A program made the translations under genes and the position numbers. From Patescibacteria group bacterium (GTDB taxonomy: Bacteria; Patescibacteriota; Patescibacteriia; UBA2591; JAQUPP01): DNA of 64,000 nt. The stretch spans positions 68,079-132,078 of the forward strand of contig JBAZMD010000001.1 in assembly GCA_041649955.1 (NCBI GenBank), given 5' to 3'. The notes beneath the pieces are model-generated. The model was not told the DNA's origin and did not search any database. It was given only the letters and a program-made list of their open reading frames with translations. Numbering within the stretch: position 1 is the stretch's first letter; every line of letters starts with the position of its first letter. Shown in pieces: positions 52,984 through 62,970 of the stretch.

Positions 52984-53001
52984 ATTTTATTTATTTGTTA
53001 A

Positions 53002-53238
53002 TTATTTAATTAATTCTGTTAATTTATCAAGTTTTTTATGAAACACGGAAACAATCTTGCCGAATTGATTGCTCGGAATAAGAATTATTGTTTCTGCCGG
53101 AGTCAAAAAAGCCACCAGCTTATCGCCGCTTTTTATTTTCAATTTTTTGCGGATTTCGGCCGGAACTACAATCTGTCCCCGTTCGCCGACTGTGGCGGTA
53201 TCAAAACAAATTATGCTTTCAAAAAAATCTTTTTTCAT
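53002..53238 (-). CDS. AbrB/SpoVT-family DNA-binding protein
   Basis: 78 aa with the swapped-hairpin motif GERGQIVVPAEIRKKLKIKSGDKL. Lies 18 nt upstream of hlyD. Confidence 0.8.
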   Translation of the reverse strand: MKKDFFESIICFDTATVGERGQIVVPAEIRKKLKIKSGDKLVAFLTPAETIILIPSNQFGKIVSVFHKKLDKLTELIK

Positions 53239-53288
53239 AAATTTTTATATTAAATAATATGATTTATATGATACTTCATACAAATCAT

Positions 53289-53316
53289 ATTATAGCTAAT
53301 CTAAAATCTTCGTCAA
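53289..53316 (-). promoter_or_regulatory. Promoter for the abrB-hlyD-ABC operon
   Basis: gtgggggTTGACGaagattttagattagcTATAAT. The -35 box is embedded in the arm of an inverted repeat. Confidence 0.65.
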
Positions 53317-53436
53317 CCCCCACACCAAACTTAGCGCTTGATTTACATATTATAAAAGTCGTAAGACGGAAGCCGCTTCGCTCTTATCTCTTCATATTAA
53401 AAAAGCCTTACGTTGAGTTGTGGTGTGGGGGTCAAC
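53311..53436. repeat. Inverted repeat with C-rich and G-rich arms around the abrB promoter region
   Basis: cgtcaacccccacaccaaac (53311-53330) pairs with gttgtggtgtgggggtcaac (53417-53436). An internal cgtaag/cttacg pairing is also present. Confidence 0.6.
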
Positions 53437-53464
53437 CCCTCTGTGGACAAATTACAAATAACTC

Positions 53465-53507
53465 TAACAAAATAAATAGGGGTGAGAGAACTTGTCTCAC
53501 ACCCCCC
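53465..53507 (-). terminator. Intrinsic terminator closing the orphan transcript
   Basis: ggggtgtgaga-caagt-tctctcacccc, followed by tatttatttt. Confidence 0.6.
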
Positions 53508-53693
53508 TGGAGGATAACAGTGTATAAAGCTGTTATATCGATATTAGTGTTTTAAGGCGGTATTCCCCTATAATGGGACATGAGGACCTCCTATTTTTAG
53601 CAATTTAGGTAGCGCTCAAATTTGATCCCTTTCAGGATCTGGCTAGCGCTAAGCCATTGCTTTCATAAAAACCACCTCCTTTATATTATGATA
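53465..53693 (-). ncRNA. Candidate ~225-nt small transcript (promoter to terminator, no real ORF)
   Basis: Bounded by the TTGACA-N16-TATACT promoter and a hairpin plus U-run. Contains several hairpins (gatcc-tgaaa-gggatc, ataacag...ctgttat, AGCGCT palindromes) and two SD-led micro-ORFs (MKAMA at 53649-53666, MSHYRGIPP at 53552-53581). Confidence 0.4.
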
Positions 53694-53699
53694 TAAACG

Positions 53700-53727
53700 A
53701 GTATATCACATTTTAAAATTTTGTCAA
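53700..53727 (-). promoter_or_regulatory. Orphan promoter with no protein gene downstream
   Basis: TTGACAaaattttaaaatgtgaTATACT. Confidence 0.6.
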
Positions 53728-53733
53728 CTCTTT

Positions 53734-54135
53734 TTATTTAATTTTATCCACATTTCCATTGAGAATAATCGGTTTCATCGCTTCTATTTCATCCGTATAA
53801 TTCATTTTGGGAATCTGGTTTAATAAAAATATCTTTTTATTCAAGATATGCGCAAAAGCCATTTCTATCAAACTATTGCCGCCGATATAATTTTTAATAC
53901 CTTGCTTGTCTTTATTAATAACCAGTATCGCGTCGCACTTTTTTATTTCTTCAAAATATTCTTTAAAAACATCACCTTCAATTTTTGACCATTTATCTTC
54001 ATGATTAACTTCACCCTCGGCGTATTTTAAAATATCCTTTGGTGCAATCGCAATTAATCCTTTTGCTTCAAGGATTTTTTGAGTTTCCAATATTTCTTTT
54101 GAAAAGGCAATACTGCCGCAAATCGCAATTTTCAT
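53734..54135 (-). CDS. Small Rossmann-like protein, possibly nucleoside 2-deoxyribosyltransferase-like
   Basis: 133 aa counted from ATG 54135 (MKIAICGSIAFSKEILETQKILEAKG...). The -10 box is 6 nt from the ATG. The 32 extra upstream codons in the ORF track run through a long inverted repeat and were trimmed. Confidence 0.55.
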   Translation of the reverse strand: MKIAICGSIAFSKEILETQKILEAKGLIAIAPKDILKYAEGEVNHEDKWSKIEGDVFKEYFEEIKKCDAILVINKDKQGIKNYIGGNSLIEMAFAHILNKKIFLLNQIPKMNYTDEIEAMKPIILNGNVDKIK

Positions 54136-54141
54136 ATTTTT

Positions 54142-54169
54142 AGTATAATATTTTTTAAAATTATGTCCA
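54142..54169 (-). promoter_or_regulatory. Promoter for the 133-aa gene, leaderless geometry
   Basis: ggggTGGACAtaattttaaaaaatatTATACTaaaaatATG. Confidence 0.55.
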
Positions 54170-54230
54170 CCCCACCACCAAGAAATTATACTTCGCGTTA
54201 AAAAAATATAATTTCTAGGTGGCGGGGTCA
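54166..54230. repeat. Miniature (65-nt) member of the same hairpin family
   Basis: tccaccccaccaccaagaaattata ... tataatttctaggtggcggggtca. About 19 of 21 arm positions are complementary. Confidence 0.65.
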
Positions 54231-54274
54231 ATAAAAAAAATTGGGTGCAGACTAGTCAAACTAGTTCTGCACCC
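54231..54274 (-). terminator. Intrinsic terminator after the 137-aa gene
   Basis: gggtgcagaactag-tttg-actagtctgcaccc, followed by a T-run. Confidence 0.75.
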
Positions 54275-54281
54275 TGATATG

Positions 54282-54695
54282 TTATATACTCGCTATTTGG
54301 ATATTTAGCTCTTCCTGTTGTCTTCTTAGTGTGTCTCTAGCTTGAAAAACTAGAGAATTCTTATCTTCAATTCTAACCTTATTCAAAGATAAAGTTGAAG
54401 AGTTCTCAACAGAATTGACCGGTTTTACTATATTCACCTTTAGAATATTGAATTCGATTTTTCCAATCTCTTTTTTTACCGGTTTTACTAAAACCTGCGA
54501 AACTAATTCAACGGGCTGAGCAACGGTAGATAAATCATTATTACTTATCTCTATACTCATCGGCAATACTTCTGGCATTGTTGTTACCTTGCTTACAACC
54601 GGTGTAAATTTGTTTTCCAAATTTGTAGTAGAAGCATAAGCTCCTATGGCAGTAAACACAACAACAACTAACAGAATTTTTTGAAATTTATTCAT
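54282..54695 (-). CDS. Hypothetical secreted or membrane-anchored protein (137 aa)
   Basis: N-terminal hydrophobic helix KILLVVVVFTAIGAYA. SD GGGAGG, promoter module and terminator present. Confidence 0.6.
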   Translation of the reverse strand: MNKFQKILLVVVVFTAIGAYASTTNLENKFTPVVSKVTTMPEVLPMSIEISNNDLSTVAQPVELVSQVLVKPVKKEIGKIEFNILKVNIVKPVNSVENSSTLSLNKVRIEDKNSLVFQARDTLRRQQEELNIQIASI

Positions 54696-54784
54696 TTAAG
54701 ACCTCCCGTCTTATTAGTTTTGCGAATCCTTTCTTTTTAGCCCGGATTCGCTTCGGCTATTTACAAAGAACTATTGTGTTATAT

Positions 54785-54812
54785 ATAATAGCATATTTTT
54801 GAATTTTGTCAA
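54785..54812 (-). promoter_or_regulatory. Conserved promoter module (137-aa gene)
   Basis: gagggggTTGACAaaattcaaaaatatgcTATTAT. Confidence 0.7.
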
Positions 54813-54962
54813 CCCCCTCACATGTGGAAAACCATAAAGGGCATACTGTCTTTCGTTTTTTTATATATACACTGATTTTATCTTATCTATATGCTTATTT
54901 TTAACTTTATGCCTATTAAACTGTAATTTCCAAGAAAGACAATGGTTTTCCTTGTGAGGGGG
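54813..54962. repeat. MITE-like hairpin element with a C-rich and a G-rich arm, full-length copy (opposite orientation)
   Basis: Arms ccccctcacatgtggaaaaccat and atggttttccttgtgaggggg. Interior blocks match the reverse complement of the 19066-19222 interior. Confidence 0.75.
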
Positions 54963-54977
54963 CCAAGAGCAAATTTG

Positions 54978-55008
54978 GGGATAAATAAAAGGGGCGATTT
55001 CTCGCCCC
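54978..55008 (-). terminator. Intrinsic terminator after the 147-aa gene
   Basis: ggggcga-gaaa-tcgcccc, followed by ttttattt. Confidence 0.7.
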
Positions 55009-55029
55009 CCGTTTAAATACTTACTATTC

Positions 55030-55473
55030 CTATTCTTTTAGCTTCTTCATCCATGCCTTTAAACATTCTTCTACTTTTGGAAAGTCCTGAAACGTTGTGT
55101 TATCAGGACAGGAGATAATAATGACCATACTCTTACGTTCTATGACCGGATGCACCAGAACGCACATATCTTCCATGTCAAAGATGTTAAATTGATCATT
55201 ATCAATATCCCCAACATTTACATATGAAGCTGTCTTCCTGTGCTGCTTATACTGAAAAGTAAGAATAATGCCGGTATCTCGCGCAACTTTAGGATTTAAA
55301 ACTTCATAATCCATTATCTCTTCAATTTTCTCGGCTCCATAGAACATCAACTTGCCCACTTTTATTTTCCGCTGCTCTAATAAAATATATTTAAGCGCGG
55401 GAATATTATTCAGCTCCTCATCTATCTTTTCCGAATCTACTAATACATTATTCACTGCTGTTGTTGCGCCCAT
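55030..55473 (-). CDS. Hypothetical protein (147 aa)
   Basis: SD AGGGGGGG, promoter module and terminator present. No motif recognised. Confidence 0.6.
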   Translation of the reverse strand: MGATTAVNNVLVDSEKIDEELNNIPALKYILLEQRKIKVGKLMFYGAEKIEEIMDYEVLNPKVARDTGIILTFQYKQHRKTASYVNVGDIDNDQFNIFDMEDMCVLVHPVIERKSMVIIISCPDNTTFQDFPKVEECLKAWMKKLKE

Positions 55474-55527
55474 TATTGCCCCCCCCTTTTTTTTCTATTC
55501 AACGAACTTTAATTTTTATATGTTTTA

Positions 55528-55555
55528 ATTATAGCATATTTTTGATTTTTGTCAA
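55528..55555 (-). promoter_or_regulatory. Conserved promoter module (147-aa gene)
   Basis: TTGACAaaaatcaaaaatatgcTATAAT. Confidence 0.7.
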
Positions 55556-55585
55556 TAGATTGAAAAAAGGCGCTTAATTATTTAA

Positions 55586-55795
55586 TTAATACGCCTTCTT
55601 ATTCATACAGGCCTCCAAGATTTCTCTGAATGTCCTTTTATCCGATTTATCCGCATTGGGACAATGAGAAATTGGTTCTATTGGTAAAATTCCTAATCCC
55701 CTTAAAGTTTTCCTAACCTCATCCGCTTTAATCGCAGAATTGGGATTAGTAGGAATCTGCCAATAACCTGGATGGTTATTATCAAAAATGTCCAT
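55586..55795 (-). CDS. Hypothetical small protein (69 aa)
   Basis: SD AAGGAGG lies 4 nt before the ATG, with a promoter-like element upstream. Confidence 0.55.
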   Translation of the reverse strand: MDIFDNNHPGYWQIPTNPNSAIKADEVRKTLRGLGILPIEPISHCPNADKSDKRTFREILEACMNKKAY

Positions 55796-55815
55796 TTTTC
55801 CTCCTTTATATTAAT

Positions 55816-55843
55816 AGCATAGCATAAAATTGAGAAATGTCAA
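55816..55843 (-). promoter_or_regulatory. Promoter-like element (69-aa gene)
   Basis: TTGACAtttctcaattttatgcTATGCT. The choice of -10 box is ambiguous. Confidence 0.45.
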
Positions 55844-55897
55844 GATAGTTAAATTTAACTGTAATTTTCAGAAAAATAATAATCCCCATATGGGGAC

Positions 55898-55926
55898 TTG
55901 ACAAAAATCGGAAAATATGATATTTT
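55898..55926 (+). promoter_or_regulatory. Conserved promoter module in + orientation (158-aa gene)
   Basis: tccccatatggggacTTGACAaaaatcggaaaatatgaTATTTT, preceded by a 14-nt palindrome with a C arm and a G arm. Confidence 0.7.
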
Positions 55927-55996
55927 AAATGTATATAAATCAGTTATTTGAAAACCAAAAAAAAGTAAGAAGTAAAGAAAGAAGGAGGAGGTGAAC

Positions 55997-56473
55997 ATGT
56001 TTAATTTATTGGTGGCAGCAATGCTTATAGCCGCTCCCAAGACATATACAGTTCAAGGGGGTCCGGGACTTAGTTGCGACGGTTTCATATTTAGGGGTTC
56101 GGTAGACTACGGAAAGGTTGGTCTACAAATTTCGGAGTCCATATATTACAACATCGAGAAGAGTTACAACTTTCTTCACAGAGCAGAGTTCAGAACACTG
56201 CTTACCGGGACTGATTGTGACTATTTCTTTGTAGGGGGAGCTATCAATGAAACCAAAGGAAAGATTCCTACTACTGGTGTGGGAATAAGTGCCGGAGTGG
56301 GAGGTAGATTCACTTCTTGGTTCATTATAGAAGTGGGTCTTATCTGGGAAGTGTTCGGGGAATTCGGCGGAACATACAAATATGTATGTGACCGCAATTC
56401 ATTTGATAACTCATCCAGTAATAAATCAAAGTACGGTTGCATTTTCAATGTAACTGTTCCTCTGATAAGGTGA
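55997..56473 (+). CDS. Hypothetical secreted Gly-rich beta-type protein (158 aa)
   Basis: ATG 55997 follows GGAGGAGG. Signal-like MFNLLVAAMLIAAP. The same promoter module is present in + orientation, with a strong hairpin terminator downstream. Confidence 0.6.
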   Translation: MFNLLVAAMLIAAPKTYTVQGGPGLSCDGFIFRGSVDYGKVGLQISESIYYNIEKSYNFLHRAEFRTLLTGTDCDYFFVGGAINETKGKIPTTGVGISAGVGGRFTSWFIIEVGLIWEVFGEFGGTYKYVCDRNSFDNSSSNKSKYGCIFNVTVPLIR

Positions 56474-56481
56474 GAATTTTA

Positions 56482-56529
56482 GGGCCTTAGTCTATACACA
56501 TAATAGTATAGATTGAGGCCCGTTTTTTT
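56482..56529 (+). terminator. Intrinsic terminator after the + strand 158-aa gene
   Basis: gggccttagtctatac...gtatagattgaggccc, followed by gttttttt. Confidence 0.7.
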
Positions 56530-56570
56530 ATCTAAAAAGCGTAATGGGCGACAGATTTTCTGTCGCCCAT
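56530..56570 (-). terminator. Hairpin terminator after the Cys-rich 131-aa gene
   Basis: atgggcgaca-gaaaatc-tgtcgcccat, followed by tacgcttttt. Confidence 0.6.
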
Positions 56571-56573
56571 TGA

Positions 56574-56969
56574 TTATATTTGACATCCGGGATATCGCTC
56601 TGTGGGGATTCTTTCCCCGCCATTGTGATTTTGCGTCATTGCAATCTTTCGTTCAATGTTATCGCACCTTATACATTGAACACTGCCAAGTTTTTGAACC
56701 AATCGCAGAAATATACAGCAATCTTTCCCTCTGCCTCCTCCGCATTTTTTGATGTCGGTGATCTTTATTTCTTTTTCAAGTTCTATAACTTTCAGTTCAT
56801 CAGTTTTTACCGCTATTGCCGCAATAATGCCATCTCCAAAAAACAACACCGCTGTTTCGTCCAAATTGCAATGAGAAAATACACCTTGTATCGGACCTAC
56901 TAAATTACCACAACTGATACCTTCCATTCCTTTATAGGATACTACTGTTTGTTTCGGAATTTGTTCCAT
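56574..56969 (-). CDS. Hypothetical Cys-rich protein (131 aa)
   Basis: SD GGAGGTGGG. C-terminal Cys pattern KKCGGGRGKDCC...CIRCDN...PGCQI. No family recognised. Confidence 0.6.
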   Translation of the reverse strand: MEQIPKQTVVSYKGMEGISCGNLVGPIQGVFSHCNLDETAVLFFGDGIIAAIAVKTDELKVIELEKEIKITDIKKCGGGRGKDCCIFLRLVQKLGSVQCIRCDNIERKIAMTQNHNGGERIPTERYPGCQI

Positions 56970-57034
56970 TCATCCCACCTCCTTTTAAAAGATGCTTTTA
57001 AATCCTTAATTATTAGATTTAATTTGTTACTATT

Positions 57035-57063
57035 ATTTAAGCAAATTTTTTGATTTTTGTCAA
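57035..57063 (-). promoter_or_regulatory. Conserved promoter module (Cys-rich 131-aa gene)
   Basis: ggggTTGACAaaaatcaaaaaatttgcTTAAAT. Confidence 0.65.
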
Positions 57064-57078
57064 CCCCTATTACAAAAA

Positions 57079-57825
57079 TTATTCTTTGACCAATTCAACA
57101 GACAAGCTTTCAAGAGGGATTCCTTGATATTGCTTTTTGCTTATCTCTTTATTTTCCAATAAAATATTGGCAATAAATCCCACTTTTTTTATTTTATTCA
57201 AATAATCTTCTTTTAATAACGCTCCTGCCACGCAACCGGATAATAACTCTTCATTATTTCTTTGCTCGTCCGATAATTCTTTTAATAAAACAATATCAGA
57301 AACATACATTCTGCCTCCTCTTTTCAAAACCCTATAAGCTTCTTTAAACGTTTTTTCTTTATCCGGAGTAAGATTTATGACGCAGTTTGTTATTATAACA
57401 TCCACGGTATTGTCTTTAATCGGCAGATTTTCTATTTCTCCTAAAATAAATTCTAAATTTTTTAAATTATTATTTTTGGCGATTGATTTTGCTCTTTCAA
57501 CCATTGCCTCGGTCATATCTATTCCGATAACTTTGCCGTTTTCACCAACTTTTTTTGCGGCCAAGAAACAATCAATACCAGCCCCTGATCCCAAATCCAA
57601 AACCGTATCCCCTTCTTTTATCTTGCTTAGAGCTACCGGATTCCCGCAGCCAAGACCAAGATTCGCGCTCCCTGCTACTTTGAGATCATTTTCCGAATAT
57701 CCTATATCTTTTGAAATATTAACGCCTTTTCCGCAACTACAGCTGCAACCGCATTGAGAACCGCTCTTCGCCAATTCTTCATATTTACTTTTTACGATTT
57801 GTTTTATATCTTTAGAATTTTTCAT
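57079..57825 (-). CDS. arsM: ArsM-like SAM-dependent methyltransferase (arsenite/thiol methyltransferase layout)
   Basis: 248 aa. N-terminal Cys cluster SQCGCSCSCG, then GLGCGNP and motif I VLDLGSGAGIDCF. Confidence 0.7.
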   Translation of the reverse strand: MKNSKDIKQIVKSKYEELAKSGSQCGCSCSCGKGVNISKDIGYSENDLKVAGSANLGLGCGNPVALSKIKEGDTVLDLGSGAGIDCFLAAKKVGENGKVIGIDMTEAMVERAKSIAKNNNLKNLEFILGEIENLPIKDNTVDVIITNCVINLTPDKEKTFKEAYRVLKRGGRMYVSDIVLLKELSDEQRNNEELLSGCVAGALLKEDYLNKIKKVGFIANILLENKEISKKQYQGIPLESLSVELVKE

Positions 57826-57899
57826 AATTTAATTTTGCTTATAATATTTTATATTTTTAGTATAGCAAATTTAAATAAAAAAATATAGCAGCTTGTTTT

Positions 57900-57938
57900 G
57901 AATAAATTTTAAATGGGGAAAAGCTTTTGCCTTTCCCC
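57900..57938 (-). terminator. Hairpin terminator after the 140-aa gene
   Basis: A 10-bp stem ggggaaaggc/gcttttcccc with an AAAA loop. Confidence 0.6.
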
Positions 57939-57952
57939 ATTTCCTTCAATTA

Positions 57953-58375
57953 TTATTTTCTAAATGTCAGAGAAGAGAAGAAAGCAGGCAAGGCCTCAAT
58001 AATACGGCGCCGAAAATCAGCCTCTACTTCTAAAAATGGTTTCTCTTCTTGGATAGCCACTTTTAACATCCCGAATGTATTACCAATTAGAGCTCGGTGA
58101 CCCATTTCGTCTTCTACTTCCTTAAGTTCATCCTGATATTTCTGAAGTCCTAATTTGATGCTCATTACCAAACCATCTATCCTGGCAGGCTGATTTGAGA
58201 ATTTAACAATTTGCAAGACCTGGTATATATGTTTTAAGGTATCTTCCTGAATCCGCTTAACTTCTACTGTATAAAAATTACTATTTTTTTGGGCTAACCT
58301 TAATACATCTTGTTCTCTTTCCAGAATTTCTTTTATCTCTTCCCACTGTTTTTGATAAAGAACTTCTTTGCTCAT
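57953..58375 (-). CDS. Hypothetical helical protein (140 aa)
   Basis: Start moved to ATG 58375, 6 nt after GGGGGTG. The ORF-track GTG at 58384 abuts the SD. Promoter and terminator present. Confidence 0.6.
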   Translation of the reverse strand: MSKEVLYQKQWEEIKEILEREQDVLRLAQKNSNFYTVEVKRIQEDTLKHIYQVLQIVKFSNQPARIDGLVMSIKLGLQKYQDELKEVEDEMGHRALIGNTFGMLKVAIQEEKPFLEVEADFRRRIIEALPAFFSSLTFRK

Positions 58376-58405
58376 TTCAATCACCCCCTTTTTTTAATTA
58401 TTTAA

Positions 58406-62896: not shown

Positions 62897-62970
62897 TGGC
62901 TGCGGGAGATGGATTCGAACCATCATAGCCAGCTCCAAAGGCTGGAGTCCTACCATTAGACGATCCCGCA
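62897..62970 (-). tRNA. tRNA-Gln (anticodon UUG), CCA encoded
   Basis: A 74-nt cloverleaf read by hand. Acceptor TGCGGGA/TCCCGCA (U1-A72), D arm GTCT-AATGGTA-GGAC, anticodon stem CCAGC/GCTGG with loop CTTTGGA, variable CTAT, T arm GATGG-TTCGAAT-CCATC, then G-CCA. Confidence 0.9.

What the first reader, a model, noticed from the sequence alone, without database searches (positions are those of the whole stretch)
53465..53727. Orphan promoter-to-terminator unit of about 225 nt with no real ORF: candidate sRNA or dual-function RNA
- A good promoter (TTGACA-N16-TATACT, 53700-53727) fires into 53.69-53.47 kb.
- That region holds only two SD-led micro-ORFs: AGGAGG-N8-ATG MKAMA stop at 53649-53666, and AGGAGG-N5-ATG MSHYRGIPP stop at 53552-53581.
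- It also holds several stable hairpins: AGCGCT-centred palindromes, gatcc-tgaaa-gggatc, and ataacag/ctgttat.
- It ends in a hairpin plus U-run terminator (53465-53507).
- It lies just upstream of the abrB-hlyD-ABC exporter operon.
- It could therefore encode a leader or micro-peptide, a type I toxin-antitoxin-like RNA, or a regulatory RNA for the exporter.
Basis: seen in the sequence. Interest (0 to 1): 0.5.

Follow-up and report, generated by a model that had tools for sequence, protein, structure and literature searches.

The report
Tiny Pro-Pro-stop ORF with terminator
The "orphan RNA" is a real promoter-to-terminator unit in an uncultured Patescibacteria genome, but its conserved core is a translated 8-9-codon ORF ending in Gly-Ile-Pro-Pro-stop next to a terminator, which looks like a ribosome-pausing regulatory leader rather than a classic small RNA.

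Summary
On the minus strand there is a TTGACA-16-TGn-TATACT promoter, two SD-led micro-ORFs and a strong intrinsic terminator, with no Rfam family.

Relatives change the interpretation.
- The unit exists only in one narrow Patescibacteria clade, whose next HlyD relatives are about 54% identical.
- It occurs there in three positions and forms.
  - A long form lies before abrB (window, L003) or before a prohibitin gene (L014).
  - A short form lacks the 81-nt hairpin segment and MKAMA (L001, L019, L017).
  - A promoter-less copy lies after the prohibitin gene (L014).

Two things are shared by every copy.
- AAGGAGGT-N4-7-ATG, then an 8-9-codon ORF: MSHYRGIPP, MFHYKGIPP, MSHTGLPP, MSRNKGTPP, MLLKGIPP, MLQKGIPP.
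- A homologous terminator 15-46 nt downstream that keeps its stem through covarying pairs.

Changes in the conserved codons are silent, and all ORF length differences are in frame.

MKAMA and most of the hairpins are form-specific. The link to the exporter operon is not strict, and abrB has its own promoter.

Best reading: a translated Pro-Pro-stop micro-ORF plus terminator module, probably a ribosome-pausing cis-regulator. I found no antiterminator, so the mechanism is inferred. Interest is moderate.

The parts
53700..53727 (-). Sigma-70-type promoter with extended -10: TTGACA, 16-nt spacer, TGn, TATACT. The predicted transcription start is near 53693.
   Evidence: The -35 box and spacing are conserved in every own-promoter variant.
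53674..53682 (-). First SD box, AAAGGAGGT. In short-form relatives this box directly serves the Pro-Pro-stop ORF.
53593..53673 (-). 81-nt hairpin-forming segment found only in long forms, bracketed by two AGGAGGT boxes. It contains micro-ORF1 (MKAMA, 53649-53666), the AGCGCT palindromes and the GAUCC/GGAUC hairpin.
   Evidence: Present in window/L004, L003 and L014 unit A (83% identity). Absent in L001, L019, L017 and L014 unit B. Fold. ORF1 is not conserved in length.
53586..53592 (-). Second SD box, AGGAGGT, 5 nt before the ATG of micro-ORF2.
53552..53581 (-). Micro-ORF2, the conserved core: ATG TCC CAT TAT AGG GGA ATA CCG CCT TAA, encoding MSHYRGIPP-stop. The family consensus is x3-4-[K/R]-G-[I/L/T]-P-P-stop.
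   Evidence: There are six distinct peptide variants and only silent changes in the Gly, Pro and stop codons. Length differences are in frame. The Pro-Pro codons also pair with the SD (-6.9 to -9.0 kcal/mol).
53514..53536 (-). Spacer hairpin AUAACAG-N9-CUGUUAU between the stop codon and the terminator. It is specific to the window/L003 form.
   Evidence: Other variants carry different spacers of 15-44 nt.
53469..53506 (-). Intrinsic terminator: a 7+4 bp G+C-rich stem, CAAGU loop, then AUUUAUUUU.
   Evidence: Homologous terminators in all variants (-18 to -21 kcal/mol for the five variants folded) show covarying pairs, read from the sequences.
53289..53316 (-). Context: abrB's own promoter (TTGACG-16-TATAAT), lying between the unit's terminator and abrB.
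   Evidence: It is retained in L014-L016, where no unit precedes it.

Best explanation
The locus is one member of a small, lineage-restricted family of micro-ORF plus terminator modules.

**Shown**
- A strong constitutive-type promoter and a consensus SD drive an 8-9-codon ORF.
- The ORF's C-terminus is invariantly Gly-[Ile/Leu/Thr]-Pro-Pro followed by a stop codon.
- A homologous intrinsic terminator follows 15-46 nt later.
- Terminated transcription would give an RNA of about 225 nt in the window and about 125 nt in short-form relatives.

**Inferred**
- The ORF is translated.
- The ribosome pauses at termination on Pro-Pro-stop. The Pro-Pro codons (CCN CCU U) double as an anti-SD that pairs with the ORF's own SD, so ribosome occupancy and SD accessibility are coupled.
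- The state of that paused ribosome sets how much transcription passes the nearby terminator into the next gene. Here that gene is the auto-regulated abrB-yknXYZ-like exporter operon. In relatives it is a prohibitin gene or a 216-aa gene.
- This would make the unit a ribosome-sensing cis-regulatory leader, with the terminated RNA as a by-product.

The 81-nt hairpin segment and MKAMA are accessory.
For: **Real signals**
- Promoter, SD and terminator are all genuine for this organism.

**Seven variants at three genomic positions share only SD, ATG, the micro-ORF and the terminator**.

**Coding signature**
- Gly GGA/GGC, Pro CCG/CCA and stop TAA/TGA are silent.
- Silent changes also occur in shared Ser, His, Ile and Lys codons.
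- ORFs are 8 or 9 codons, so length differences are in frame.
- The single 1-nt indel between window and L003 falls in the SD-ATG spacer.

**Constraint**
- The unit differs at 7 of 260 nt between window and L003, against 18-22% at fourfold sites of abrB and hlyD.

**Terminator**
- Stems keep pairing through covarying positions: G-C/U-A/U.G/C-G at pair 5, U-A/C-G at pair 6 and U.U/G-C/A-U at pair 8. These were read by hand from the sequences.

**One copy has no promoter**
- L014 unit B sits between the prohibitin gene and the terminator, the layout of an intercistronic attenuator.

**Precedents**
- MsrDL is a 6-aa leader that stalls at its stop codon and controls an intrinsic terminator (PMC10314930).
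- hCMV uORF2 stalls at termination and needs its two C-terminal prolines (PMC4605324).
- BmrB leader attenuation controls an ABC exporter that is also under AbrB control (PMC4191407).
Against: - No antiterminator was found. With the ribosome footprint at the stop codon forced single-stranded, the terminator hairpin remains in all five variants tested.
- The stop-to-terminator distance varies from 15 to 46 nt. In the window it is 45 nt, too far for a stalled ribosome to mask the stem.
- abrB has its own 11/12 promoter downstream of the terminator. In the window a 114-nt inserted element also lies in between.
- The unit is dispensable in front of abrB (L014-L016) and absent from more distant homologous operons.
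- The Pro-Pro codons are also an anti-SD. Their conservation could therefore be an RNA-level constraint.
- The comparative sample is small and closely related, with signs of recombination among haplotypes.
- There are no expression data.
Confidence: 0.38

Rival explanations
1. The unit is a stand-alone micro-peptide gene family. The 8-9-aa peptides (x3-4-[K/R]-G-[I/L/T]-P-P) are the product and act in trans, for example as a signal or as a substrate or ligand of neighbouring membrane systems. The terminator is simply the gene's terminator.
For: - The unit has its own promoter and terminator.
- It shows coding-type variation with a conserved C-terminus and a variable N-terminus.
- There are several paralogous copies, two in one genome.
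- It lies next to a MacB/HlyD-type exporter.
Against: - From my own knowledge, free functional peptides of 8-9 aa translated directly are very rare. MccA-type peptides need an adjacent MccB and a terminal Asn, and neither is present.
- There is no export signal and no processing or modification gene nearby.
- One copy has no promoter and sits in the 3' region of another mRNA.
- The association with the exporter is not constant.
Confidence: 0.2
2. The unit is a repeated intergenic terminator cassette with no regulatory role. It would be a duplicated or recombining piece of intergenic DNA that supplies a terminator (and sometimes a promoter), and the little ORF is carried along by recent common ancestry.
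For: - Presence or absence and position vary among strains inside a strain-variable island.
- Haplotypes are mosaic, and other small insertions lie nearby.
- In the window and in L014 unit A it provides the only terminator for the upstream gene.
- Neutral divergence in the clade is only about 0.15-0.33, so part of the similarity is expected anyway.
Against: - SD, ATG, reading frame, G-x-P-P and the stop codon are intact in all seven variants, while the N-terminal codons, spacers and loops have diverged or been replaced.
- Substitutions in the conserved codons are silent.
- Window and L003 differ by 2.7%, against about 20% at neutral sites.
Confidence: 0.2
3. The unit is a trans-acting (possibly dual-function) base-pairing small RNA of about 125-225 nt.
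For: - It is a discrete promoter-to-terminator unit of typical sRNA size.
- The predicted structure is stable (z = -3.0).
- Identity between window and L003 is high across the whole RNA, including the hairpin segment.
Against: - No Rfam match even at E <= 10.
- No conserved single-stranded seed exists outside the SD, the ORF end and the terminator.
- An 81-nt block and the spacers are gained, lost or replaced between variants.
- The predicted folds of the variants differ, and the L014 fold is not significant (z = -0.97).
- One copy lacks a promoter.
Confidence: 0.12
4. The region is merely the long 5' leader of abrB, with the predicted terminator read through.
For: - It has the same orientation as abrB and lies immediately upstream of it in five of six haplotypes.
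Against: - Strong terminators are kept by covarying pairs.
- abrB has its own promoter, which suffices in L014-L016.
- The same module occurs next to unrelated genes.
Confidence: 0.05

Closest known systems
MsrDL leader of msrD (streptococcal macrolide resistance; PMC10314930)
   Same: - It is a very short leader ORF (6 aa) with a stringent RBS.
[quoted passage not shown]
- An intrinsic terminator lies downstream.
- It is associated with a resistance or efflux locus.
   Different: - MsrDL is MYLIFM with no prolines, and its stalling depends on the drug.
- In that system the stalled ribosome directly obstructs the terminator, and the regulated gene has no promoter of its own after it.
- Here the stop codon is 15-46 nt from the stem and abrB has its own promoter.
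- The two share no sequence relationship.
Termination-stalling peptides with C-terminal proline: hCMV gp48/UL4 uORF2 (PMC4605324) and E. coli TnaC (PMC8450073)
   Same: - The ORF ends in Pro-stop or Pro-Pro-stop.
- In hCMV uORF2 both terminal prolines are required for silencing of release. From my own memory its C-terminus is ...Y-I-P-P, close to G-I-P-P here.
   Different: - Those peptides are 22-24 aa and use tunnel contacts.
- One is eukaryotic and blocks scanning. TnaC acts through Rho and tryptophan.
- The peptides here are only 8-9 aa, and stalling has not been tested.
RAPP/RGPP arrest peptides (ApdA, ApdP, SecM-like; PMC10951233, PMC12992588)
   Same: - They have a basic residue, a small residue and Pro-Pro near the C-terminus of a small upstream ORF.
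- They tolerate varied N-terminal sequence.
   Different: - Their motif is R-[A/G]-P-P, with arrest during elongation (Pro-tRNA in the A site).
- The motif here is [K/R]-G-[I/L/T]-P-P with an extra residue, K is allowed, and a stop codon follows directly.
- Their host proteins are much longer secretory proteins encoded upstream of Sec/YidC genes.
bmrB-bmrCD ribosome-mediated attenuation in Bacillus subtilis (PMC4191407)
   Same: - A leader ORF and an intrinsic terminator lie upstream of an ABC exporter.
- The exporter is additionally under AbrB-type transcriptional control.
   Different: - bmrB is a longer ORF that contains the terminator, an anti-terminator and an anti-anti-terminator.
- A single promoter lies upstream of the leader.
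- Here no alternative structures were found and there is a second promoter.
rnTrpL / peTrpL of Sinorhizobium (PMC7968998)
   Same: - The terminated attenuator RNA and its tiny leader peptide both exist as products of one unit.
- The unit is linked to an efflux system.
   Different: - That case is a classical Trp-codon attenuator with a demonstrated trans function.
- Nothing of that kind has been shown here.

Membership tests
Ribosome-dependent transcription attenuator (leader peptide type: trpL, bmrB, msrDL) | A short ORF with a functional RBS on the same transcript as, and upstream of, an intrinsic terminator. | tested here: met
   The layout is SD AGGAGG, 5 nt, ATG, a 9-codon ORF, then the terminator 45 nt later. 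The same layout occurs in all seven variants.
Ribosome-dependent transcription attenuator (leader peptide type: trpL, bmrB, msrDL) | A mutually exclusive antiterminator, or a terminator stem that lies within reach of the stalled ribosome. | tested here: not met
   Constrained folding with the ribosome footprint at the stop codon leaves the terminator intact in the five variants tested. The distance is 45 nt in the window, 40-46 nt in L003 and the short-form relatives, and 15-19 nt only in the L014 copies.
Ribosome-dependent transcription attenuator (leader peptide type: trpL, bmrB, msrDL) | The downstream gene depends on read-through, with no independent promoter after the terminator. | tested here: not met
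   The TTGACG-16-TATAAT promoter at 53316-53289 lies between the terminator and abrB. It stands alone in L014-L016.
Ribosome-dependent transcription attenuator (leader peptide type: trpL, bmrB, msrDL) | Conditional read-through that depends on translation of the leader. | not testable with these tools
   This needs Term-seq or RNA-seq data, or reporter assays.
Termination-stalling arrest peptides (TnaC, MsrDL, hCMV uORF2) | A conserved C-terminal residue or residues at the peptidyl-transferase centre, directly followed by a conserved stop codon. | tested here: met
   G-[I/L/T]-P-P followed by TAA or TGA in all variants. Variation in the Gly, Pro and stop codons is silent.
Termination-stalling arrest peptides (TnaC, MsrDL, hCMV uORF2) | [quoted passage not shown] | not testable with these tools
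   This needs in vitro translation or ribosome profiling.
RAPP-like arrest peptides (ApdA/ApdP/ApcA/SecM class) | A C-terminal core R-A-P-P, R-G-P-P, R-A-P-G or R-A-G-P, with arrest during elongation. | tested here: not met
   The peptides end in R-G-I-P-P, K-G-I-P-P, T-G-L-P-P or K-G-T-P-P, followed by stop. The motif definition comes from PMC12992588.
Trans-acting base-pairing sRNA | A discrete unit with its own promoter and intrinsic terminator. | tested here: met
   One family member (L014 unit B) has no promoter.
Trans-acting base-pairing sRNA | A conserved, accessible seed or structure across homologues, or membership of a described family. | tested here: not met
   No Rfam match at the gathering threshold or at E <= 10. 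The only blocks shared by all variants are the SD, the ORF 3' end and the terminator. Folds differ between variants.
Type I toxin-antitoxin | A small hydrophobic toxin ORF (about 20-60 aa) plus an overlapping or adjacent antisense RNA. | tested here: not met
   The ORFs are 5 and 9 aa and not hydrophobic. Plus-strand promoter matches reach only 9/12. The plus-strand 98-aa ORF has no Pfam hit, and the 119-nt presence/absence difference between the window and L003, which is not a multiple of three, falls inside it.
Riboswitch / known cis-regulatory RNA | A match to a described aptamer family, or a conserved ligand-binding fold. | tested here: not met
   No Rfam match. The structured 81-nt segment is missing in the short-form variants.

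The most novel reading that the evidence does not exclude
A Patescibacteria-specific family of minimal (8-9 codon) arrest ORFs ends in G-[I/L/T]-P-P-stop. The ribosome pauses at termination, in a way sensitive to EF-P, release-factor or antibiotic state. The Pro-Pro codons double as an anti-SD. This pause tunes read-through of the adjacent intrinsic terminator without any antiterminator, through ribosome-RNA polymerase proximity. If so, this would be the first leader-peptide attenuator described in the candidate phyla radiation, and a bacterial counterpart of the hCMV uORF2 '...IPP-stop' mechanism.
Probability: 0.18. Interest if true: 0.6.

Novelty: new member of a known kind. Interest (0 to 1): 0.4.

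Why it matters
- Gene regulation in Patescibacteria (CPR) is almost unexplored, and these bacteria are uncultured.
- A compact, sequence-defined module (SD, 8-9-codon Pro-Pro-stop ORF, terminator) can be tested directly in heterologous or cell-free systems.
- If it does stall ribosomes at termination, three things follow.
  - It would add a minimal proline-based termination-pausing leader to the bacterial repertoire.
  - It would show that such sensors exist in reduced genomes.
  - It would give a handle on how an efflux operon and a prohibitin gene are controlled in these organisms.
- If it does not, it still shows how an apparent sRNA can resolve into a micro-ORF once relatives are compared.

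Tried and rejected
**RNA family and gene-finder searches**
- Rfam found only a tRNA-Gln at 62900-62970 in the whole window at gathering thresholds. In 53150-53800 at E <= 10 it returned only chance miRNA and IRES fragments.
- ARAGORN found no tmRNA.

**Other copies in the window**
- No other copy of the region was found by blastn or by nhmmer with a family profile.

**The plus-strand ORF**
- The 98-aa ORF at 53259-53555 has no Pfam hit.
- The 119-nt presence/absence difference between the window and L003, which is not a multiple of three, falls inside it.

**Antiterminator**
- I inspected the sequences by eye and ran constrained folds of five variants. None disrupts the terminator.

**Collection scans**
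- The genome-contig scan with HlyD returned one true relative.
- The metagenome scan with GGAGG-N4-9-ATG-N6-18-GGAATNCCGCCTTRA gave 23 hits. Three were real, all from the same clade, and 20 were chance matches, most of them inside ordinary coding sequence.
  - In hindsight the pattern was too nucleotide-specific. It would miss the GGCTTACCGCC and GGAACGCCACC variants found later, so wider distribution is not excluded.
- Two viral scans gave only random hits.
- blastn against the phage and plasmid collections found nothing.

**More distant operons**
- No such unit lies upstream of abrB-hlyD-macB or hlyD-macB operons with AbrB 67% or HlyD about 54% identical. Two of them have tRNA genes there instead.
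- A prohibitin gene with a 54%-identical product also shows no unit.

**The 81-nt segment**
- I first read it as a MITE-like insertion with an AGGAGGT target duplication. After a third copy turned up in L014 unit A, this remains unresolved.
- Its resemblance to the prohibitin 5' UTR is not significant.

**Covariation**
- MAFFT and RNAalifold on four sequences gave too little covariation to support a structure for that segment.

Full report
**1. The observation**

- **Promoter.** TTGACA (53727-53722), a 16-nt spacer ending in TGA, and TATACT (53705-53700). This is an 11/12 match with an extended -10.
- **Micro-ORF1.** AGGAGG, 8 nt, then ATG AAA GCA ATG GCT TAG (53666-53649).
- **Micro-ORF2.** AGGAGG, 5 nt, then ATG TCC CAT TAT AGG GGA ATA CCG CCT TAA (53581-53552).
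- **Terminator.** A G+C-rich hairpin of -18.4 kcal/mol at 53506-53478, followed by AUUUAUUUU.

These signals are more than chance.
- Promoter matches of 11/12 or better number 17 in the window, against 3.8 +/- 2.4 in shuffles. Twelve of them carry the TG extension.
- Nearly all other AGGAGG-N4-8-start sites in the window head ORFs of 58-585 aa.
- The 236-nt RNA folds better than shuffles, with z = -3.0.

The downstream genes are an AbrB/MazE-like protein, a HlyD/YknX-like adaptor, an ABC ATPase and a MacB/FtsX permease.

**2. Known families**

- Rfam gives nothing for this region at gathering thresholds or at E <= 10.
- ARAGORN finds only a tRNA-Gln elsewhere in the window.
- The 98-aa plus-strand ORF has no Pfam hit. 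The 119-nt presence/absence difference between the window and L003, which is not a multiple of three, falls inside it.

**3. Relatives**

The window comes from a Patescibacteria (CPR) genome. L001 is a Patescibacteria MAG whose HlyD is 91% identical.

The clade is isolated.
- HlyD homologues drop from 92% to about 54% identity.
- AbrB homologues drop from at least 96% to 67%.

I fetched contigs through the AbrB variants and compared the regions upstream of abrB. This gave six haplotypes.
- **Window = L004, and L003: the long form.**
- **L001/L020, L019/L021/L035 and L017/L018/L022/L046: a short form.** The same promoter and AAAGGAGGT box are followed directly by ATG CTT CTA/CAA AAA GGA ATT CCG CCT TGA and a terminator. 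The 81-nt hairpin segment and MKAMA are missing.
- **L014-L016: no unit at all between the upstream gene's terminator and the abrB promoter.**

More distant operons (L005-L011, L049, L057, L058) have no such unit. Two of them have tRNA genes in that position.

A metagenome-wide pattern scan recovered only the same clade. Phage and plasmid collections have nothing similar.

**4. The turning point**

I ran blastn of the long-form 5' segment against all fetched loci. It hit L014, the genome without a unit in front of abrB, about 2.3 kb further upstream.

L014/L059 carries two further members.
- **Unit A.** It has its own TTGACA-17-TATTAT promoter, the long 5' segment (83% identical to the window's), then AAAGGAGGTTAA ATG TCC CAC ACG GGC TTA CCG CCT TAA. 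A terminator follows 19 nt later. The unit lies upstream of a second promoter and a prohibitin (Band_7) gene.
- **Unit B.** It has no promoter and starts 33 nt after the prohibitin stop codon. It reads AAAAAGGAGGTGATTAGA ATG TCT CGA AAT AAG GGA ACG CCA CCT TAA, with a terminator about 15 nt later. It lies upstream of a 216-aa gene.

An nhmmer profile of the module finds no further copy in the window or in any other locus.

**5. What is conserved**

Across seven variants the shared parts are the SD, the ATG 4-7 nt later, the micro-ORF and the terminator.

The peptides are MSHYRGIPP, MFHYKGIPP, MSHTGLPP, MSRNKGTPP, MLLKGIPP and MLQKGIPP. The variation is of the coding type.
- Gly is GGA or GGC, the first Pro is CCG or CCA, and the stop is TAA or TGA.
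- Shared Ser, His, Ile and Lys codons also differ silently.
- ORFs are 8 or 9 codons long, so length differences are in frame.
- The one 1-nt indel between window and L003 lies in the SD-ATG spacer.
- Amino-acid changes cluster in positions 2-5 and at the I/L/T position.

The terminators are homologous. Their stems keep pairing through covarying positions, which I read by hand from the sequences.
- Pair 5: G-C, U-A, U.G or C-G.
- Pair 6: U-A or C-G.
- Pair 8: U.U, G-C or A-U.

The unit differs between window and L003 at 7 of 260 nt (2.7%). Fourfold-degenerate sites differ at 18% in abrB and 22% in hlyD. In a 100-nt sliding comparison the unit is among the most conserved blocks of the 8-kb alignment.

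By contrast, several parts are form-specific or replaced between variants:
- MKAMA;
- the AGCGCT and GATCC hairpins;
- the spacer hairpin;
- the spacer length, which ranges from 15 to 46 nt.

In unit A the ORF corresponding to MKAMA has a different length and a degenerate SD.

One caveat applies. The Pro-Pro codons plus U (CCN CCU U) are an anti-SD, and they pair with the ORF's own SD in every variant at -6.9 to -9.0 kcal/mol. Peptide-level and RNA-level constraints on those six bases therefore cannot be separated. The in-frame length changes, the silent Gly change and the stop-to-stop change argue for translation.

**6. Mechanism**

*Shown:* a promoter, a consensus RBS, a conserved micro-ORF ending in Pro-Pro-stop and a conserved terminator.

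*Inferred:*
- The ORF is translated.
- Termination after Pro-Pro is slow. This rests on my own knowledge of C-terminal Pro-Pro effects. hCMV uORF2 needs Pro21 and Pro22 to silence release (PMC4605324). MsrDL, a 6-aa leader, stalls at its stop codon and controls an intrinsic terminator (PMC10314930).
- The paused ribosome then modulates read-through of the nearby terminator into the next gene.

The promoter-less unit B, wedged between a gene and its terminator, fits an intercistronic attenuator.

Four observations argue against this model.
- I found no antiterminator. Folds with the ribosome footprint forced open keep the terminator in all five variants tested.
- The stop codon is 45 nt from the stem in the window.
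- abrB has its own promoter.
- The unit is dispensable in front of abrB.

I therefore give 0.38 to the combined statement (a translated Pro-Pro-stop leader acting in cis), while considering the existence of a selected, translated micro-ORF plus terminator module considerably more likely than that.

The rivals are:
- a free micro-peptide gene family (0.20);
- a functionless duplicated terminator cassette (0.20);
- a trans-acting sRNA (0.12);
- a plain abrB leader (0.05).

**7. Comparison with known systems**

It works most like short termination-stalling leaders (MsrDL, TnaC, hCMV uORF2) and like leader-peptide attenuation of exporters (bmrB-bmrCD, which is also under AbrB control; PMC4191407).

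It is not a member of the RAPP/RGPP arrest family. Its motif has an extra residue and is followed by a stop codon (PMC12992588). It also fails two defining features of classical attenuators: an alternative structure, and a downstream gene with no promoter of its own. It is not a type I toxin-antitoxin, a riboswitch or any Rfam family.

**8. Verdict**

The feature is a new, lineage-restricted member of the known kind 'tiny translated regulatory ORF with terminator', with an unproven mechanism.

Interest is moderate (0.4). The Pro-Pro-stop signature and the CPR setting are attractive and directly testable. The comparative base is narrow and there are no expression data.

Noticed in passing
window 53312-53435 (- strand): A 114-nt MITE-like element has terminal inverted repeats CCCCCACACCA/TGGTGTGGGGG and is flanked by a duplicated TTGAC. 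It sits exactly in the -35 box of the abrB promoter, which the duplication regenerates. It is present in the window, L004, L001/L020 and L019/L021/L035 (97.6% identical). The site is empty in L003 and L017. This distribution does not follow the long/short form of the unit, which suggests recombination or repeated insertion.
   Followed up: partly
window 53254-53293: An 18-bp near-perfect palindrome (ATAATATGATTTATATGA / TCATACAAATCATATTAT) lies directly after the -10 box of the abrB promoter. It is conserved in all relatives, and similar ATGATATATCATA-type repeats lie upstream of distant abrB-like genes (L010, L011). It is probably the operator of the AbrB/MazE-like autorepressor.
   Followed up: partly
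window 53586-53682 versus L001 3398-3415: The 81-nt hairpin segment of the long form is bracketed by two AGGAGGT boxes, while short forms have a single box. It is unresolved whether this is an insertion with a 7-bp target duplication at an SD, or a deletion in the short forms. The prohibitin 5' UTR in L014 (about 310-423) has the same layout of two SD boxes around a hairpin, with a 3-codon ORF (MVL), but its sequence similarity is not significant.
   Followed up: partly
window 53728-53736: No terminator separates the upstream 133/165-aa gene (stop codon at 53734-53736) from the unit's promoter. The unit's terminator is therefore the first terminator for that gene too. The same holds for L014 unit A after a radical-SAM gene.
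   Followed up: no
window 53239-53260 and 52984-53001: The abrB and hlyD start codons are preceded by A/U-rich sequence with no Shine-Dalgarno motif, whereas the micro-ORFs carry perfect AAGGAGGT. The organism uses strong SDs for only a subset of its genes.
   Followed up: no
window about 53240-58400 versus L059 1-12100: The stretch between the OmdA-like gene and abrB is a strain-variable island. Prohibitin, a 216-aa gene, a radical-SAM gene, ArsP and thioredoxin-like genes are present in L059 but absent from the window. The flanks are syntenic: the exporter operon, an RRM protein, a DUF5661 protein and a Gmad2 protein.
   Followed up: no
L001 2466-2480 and 2594-2610; L014 1506-1520 and 1640-1655; window 53431-53439 and 53312-53320: A recurrent GGGGTTGAC motif (an extended -35-like box) appears at several intergenic sites of this clade, including both ends of the MITE-like element.
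   Followed up: no
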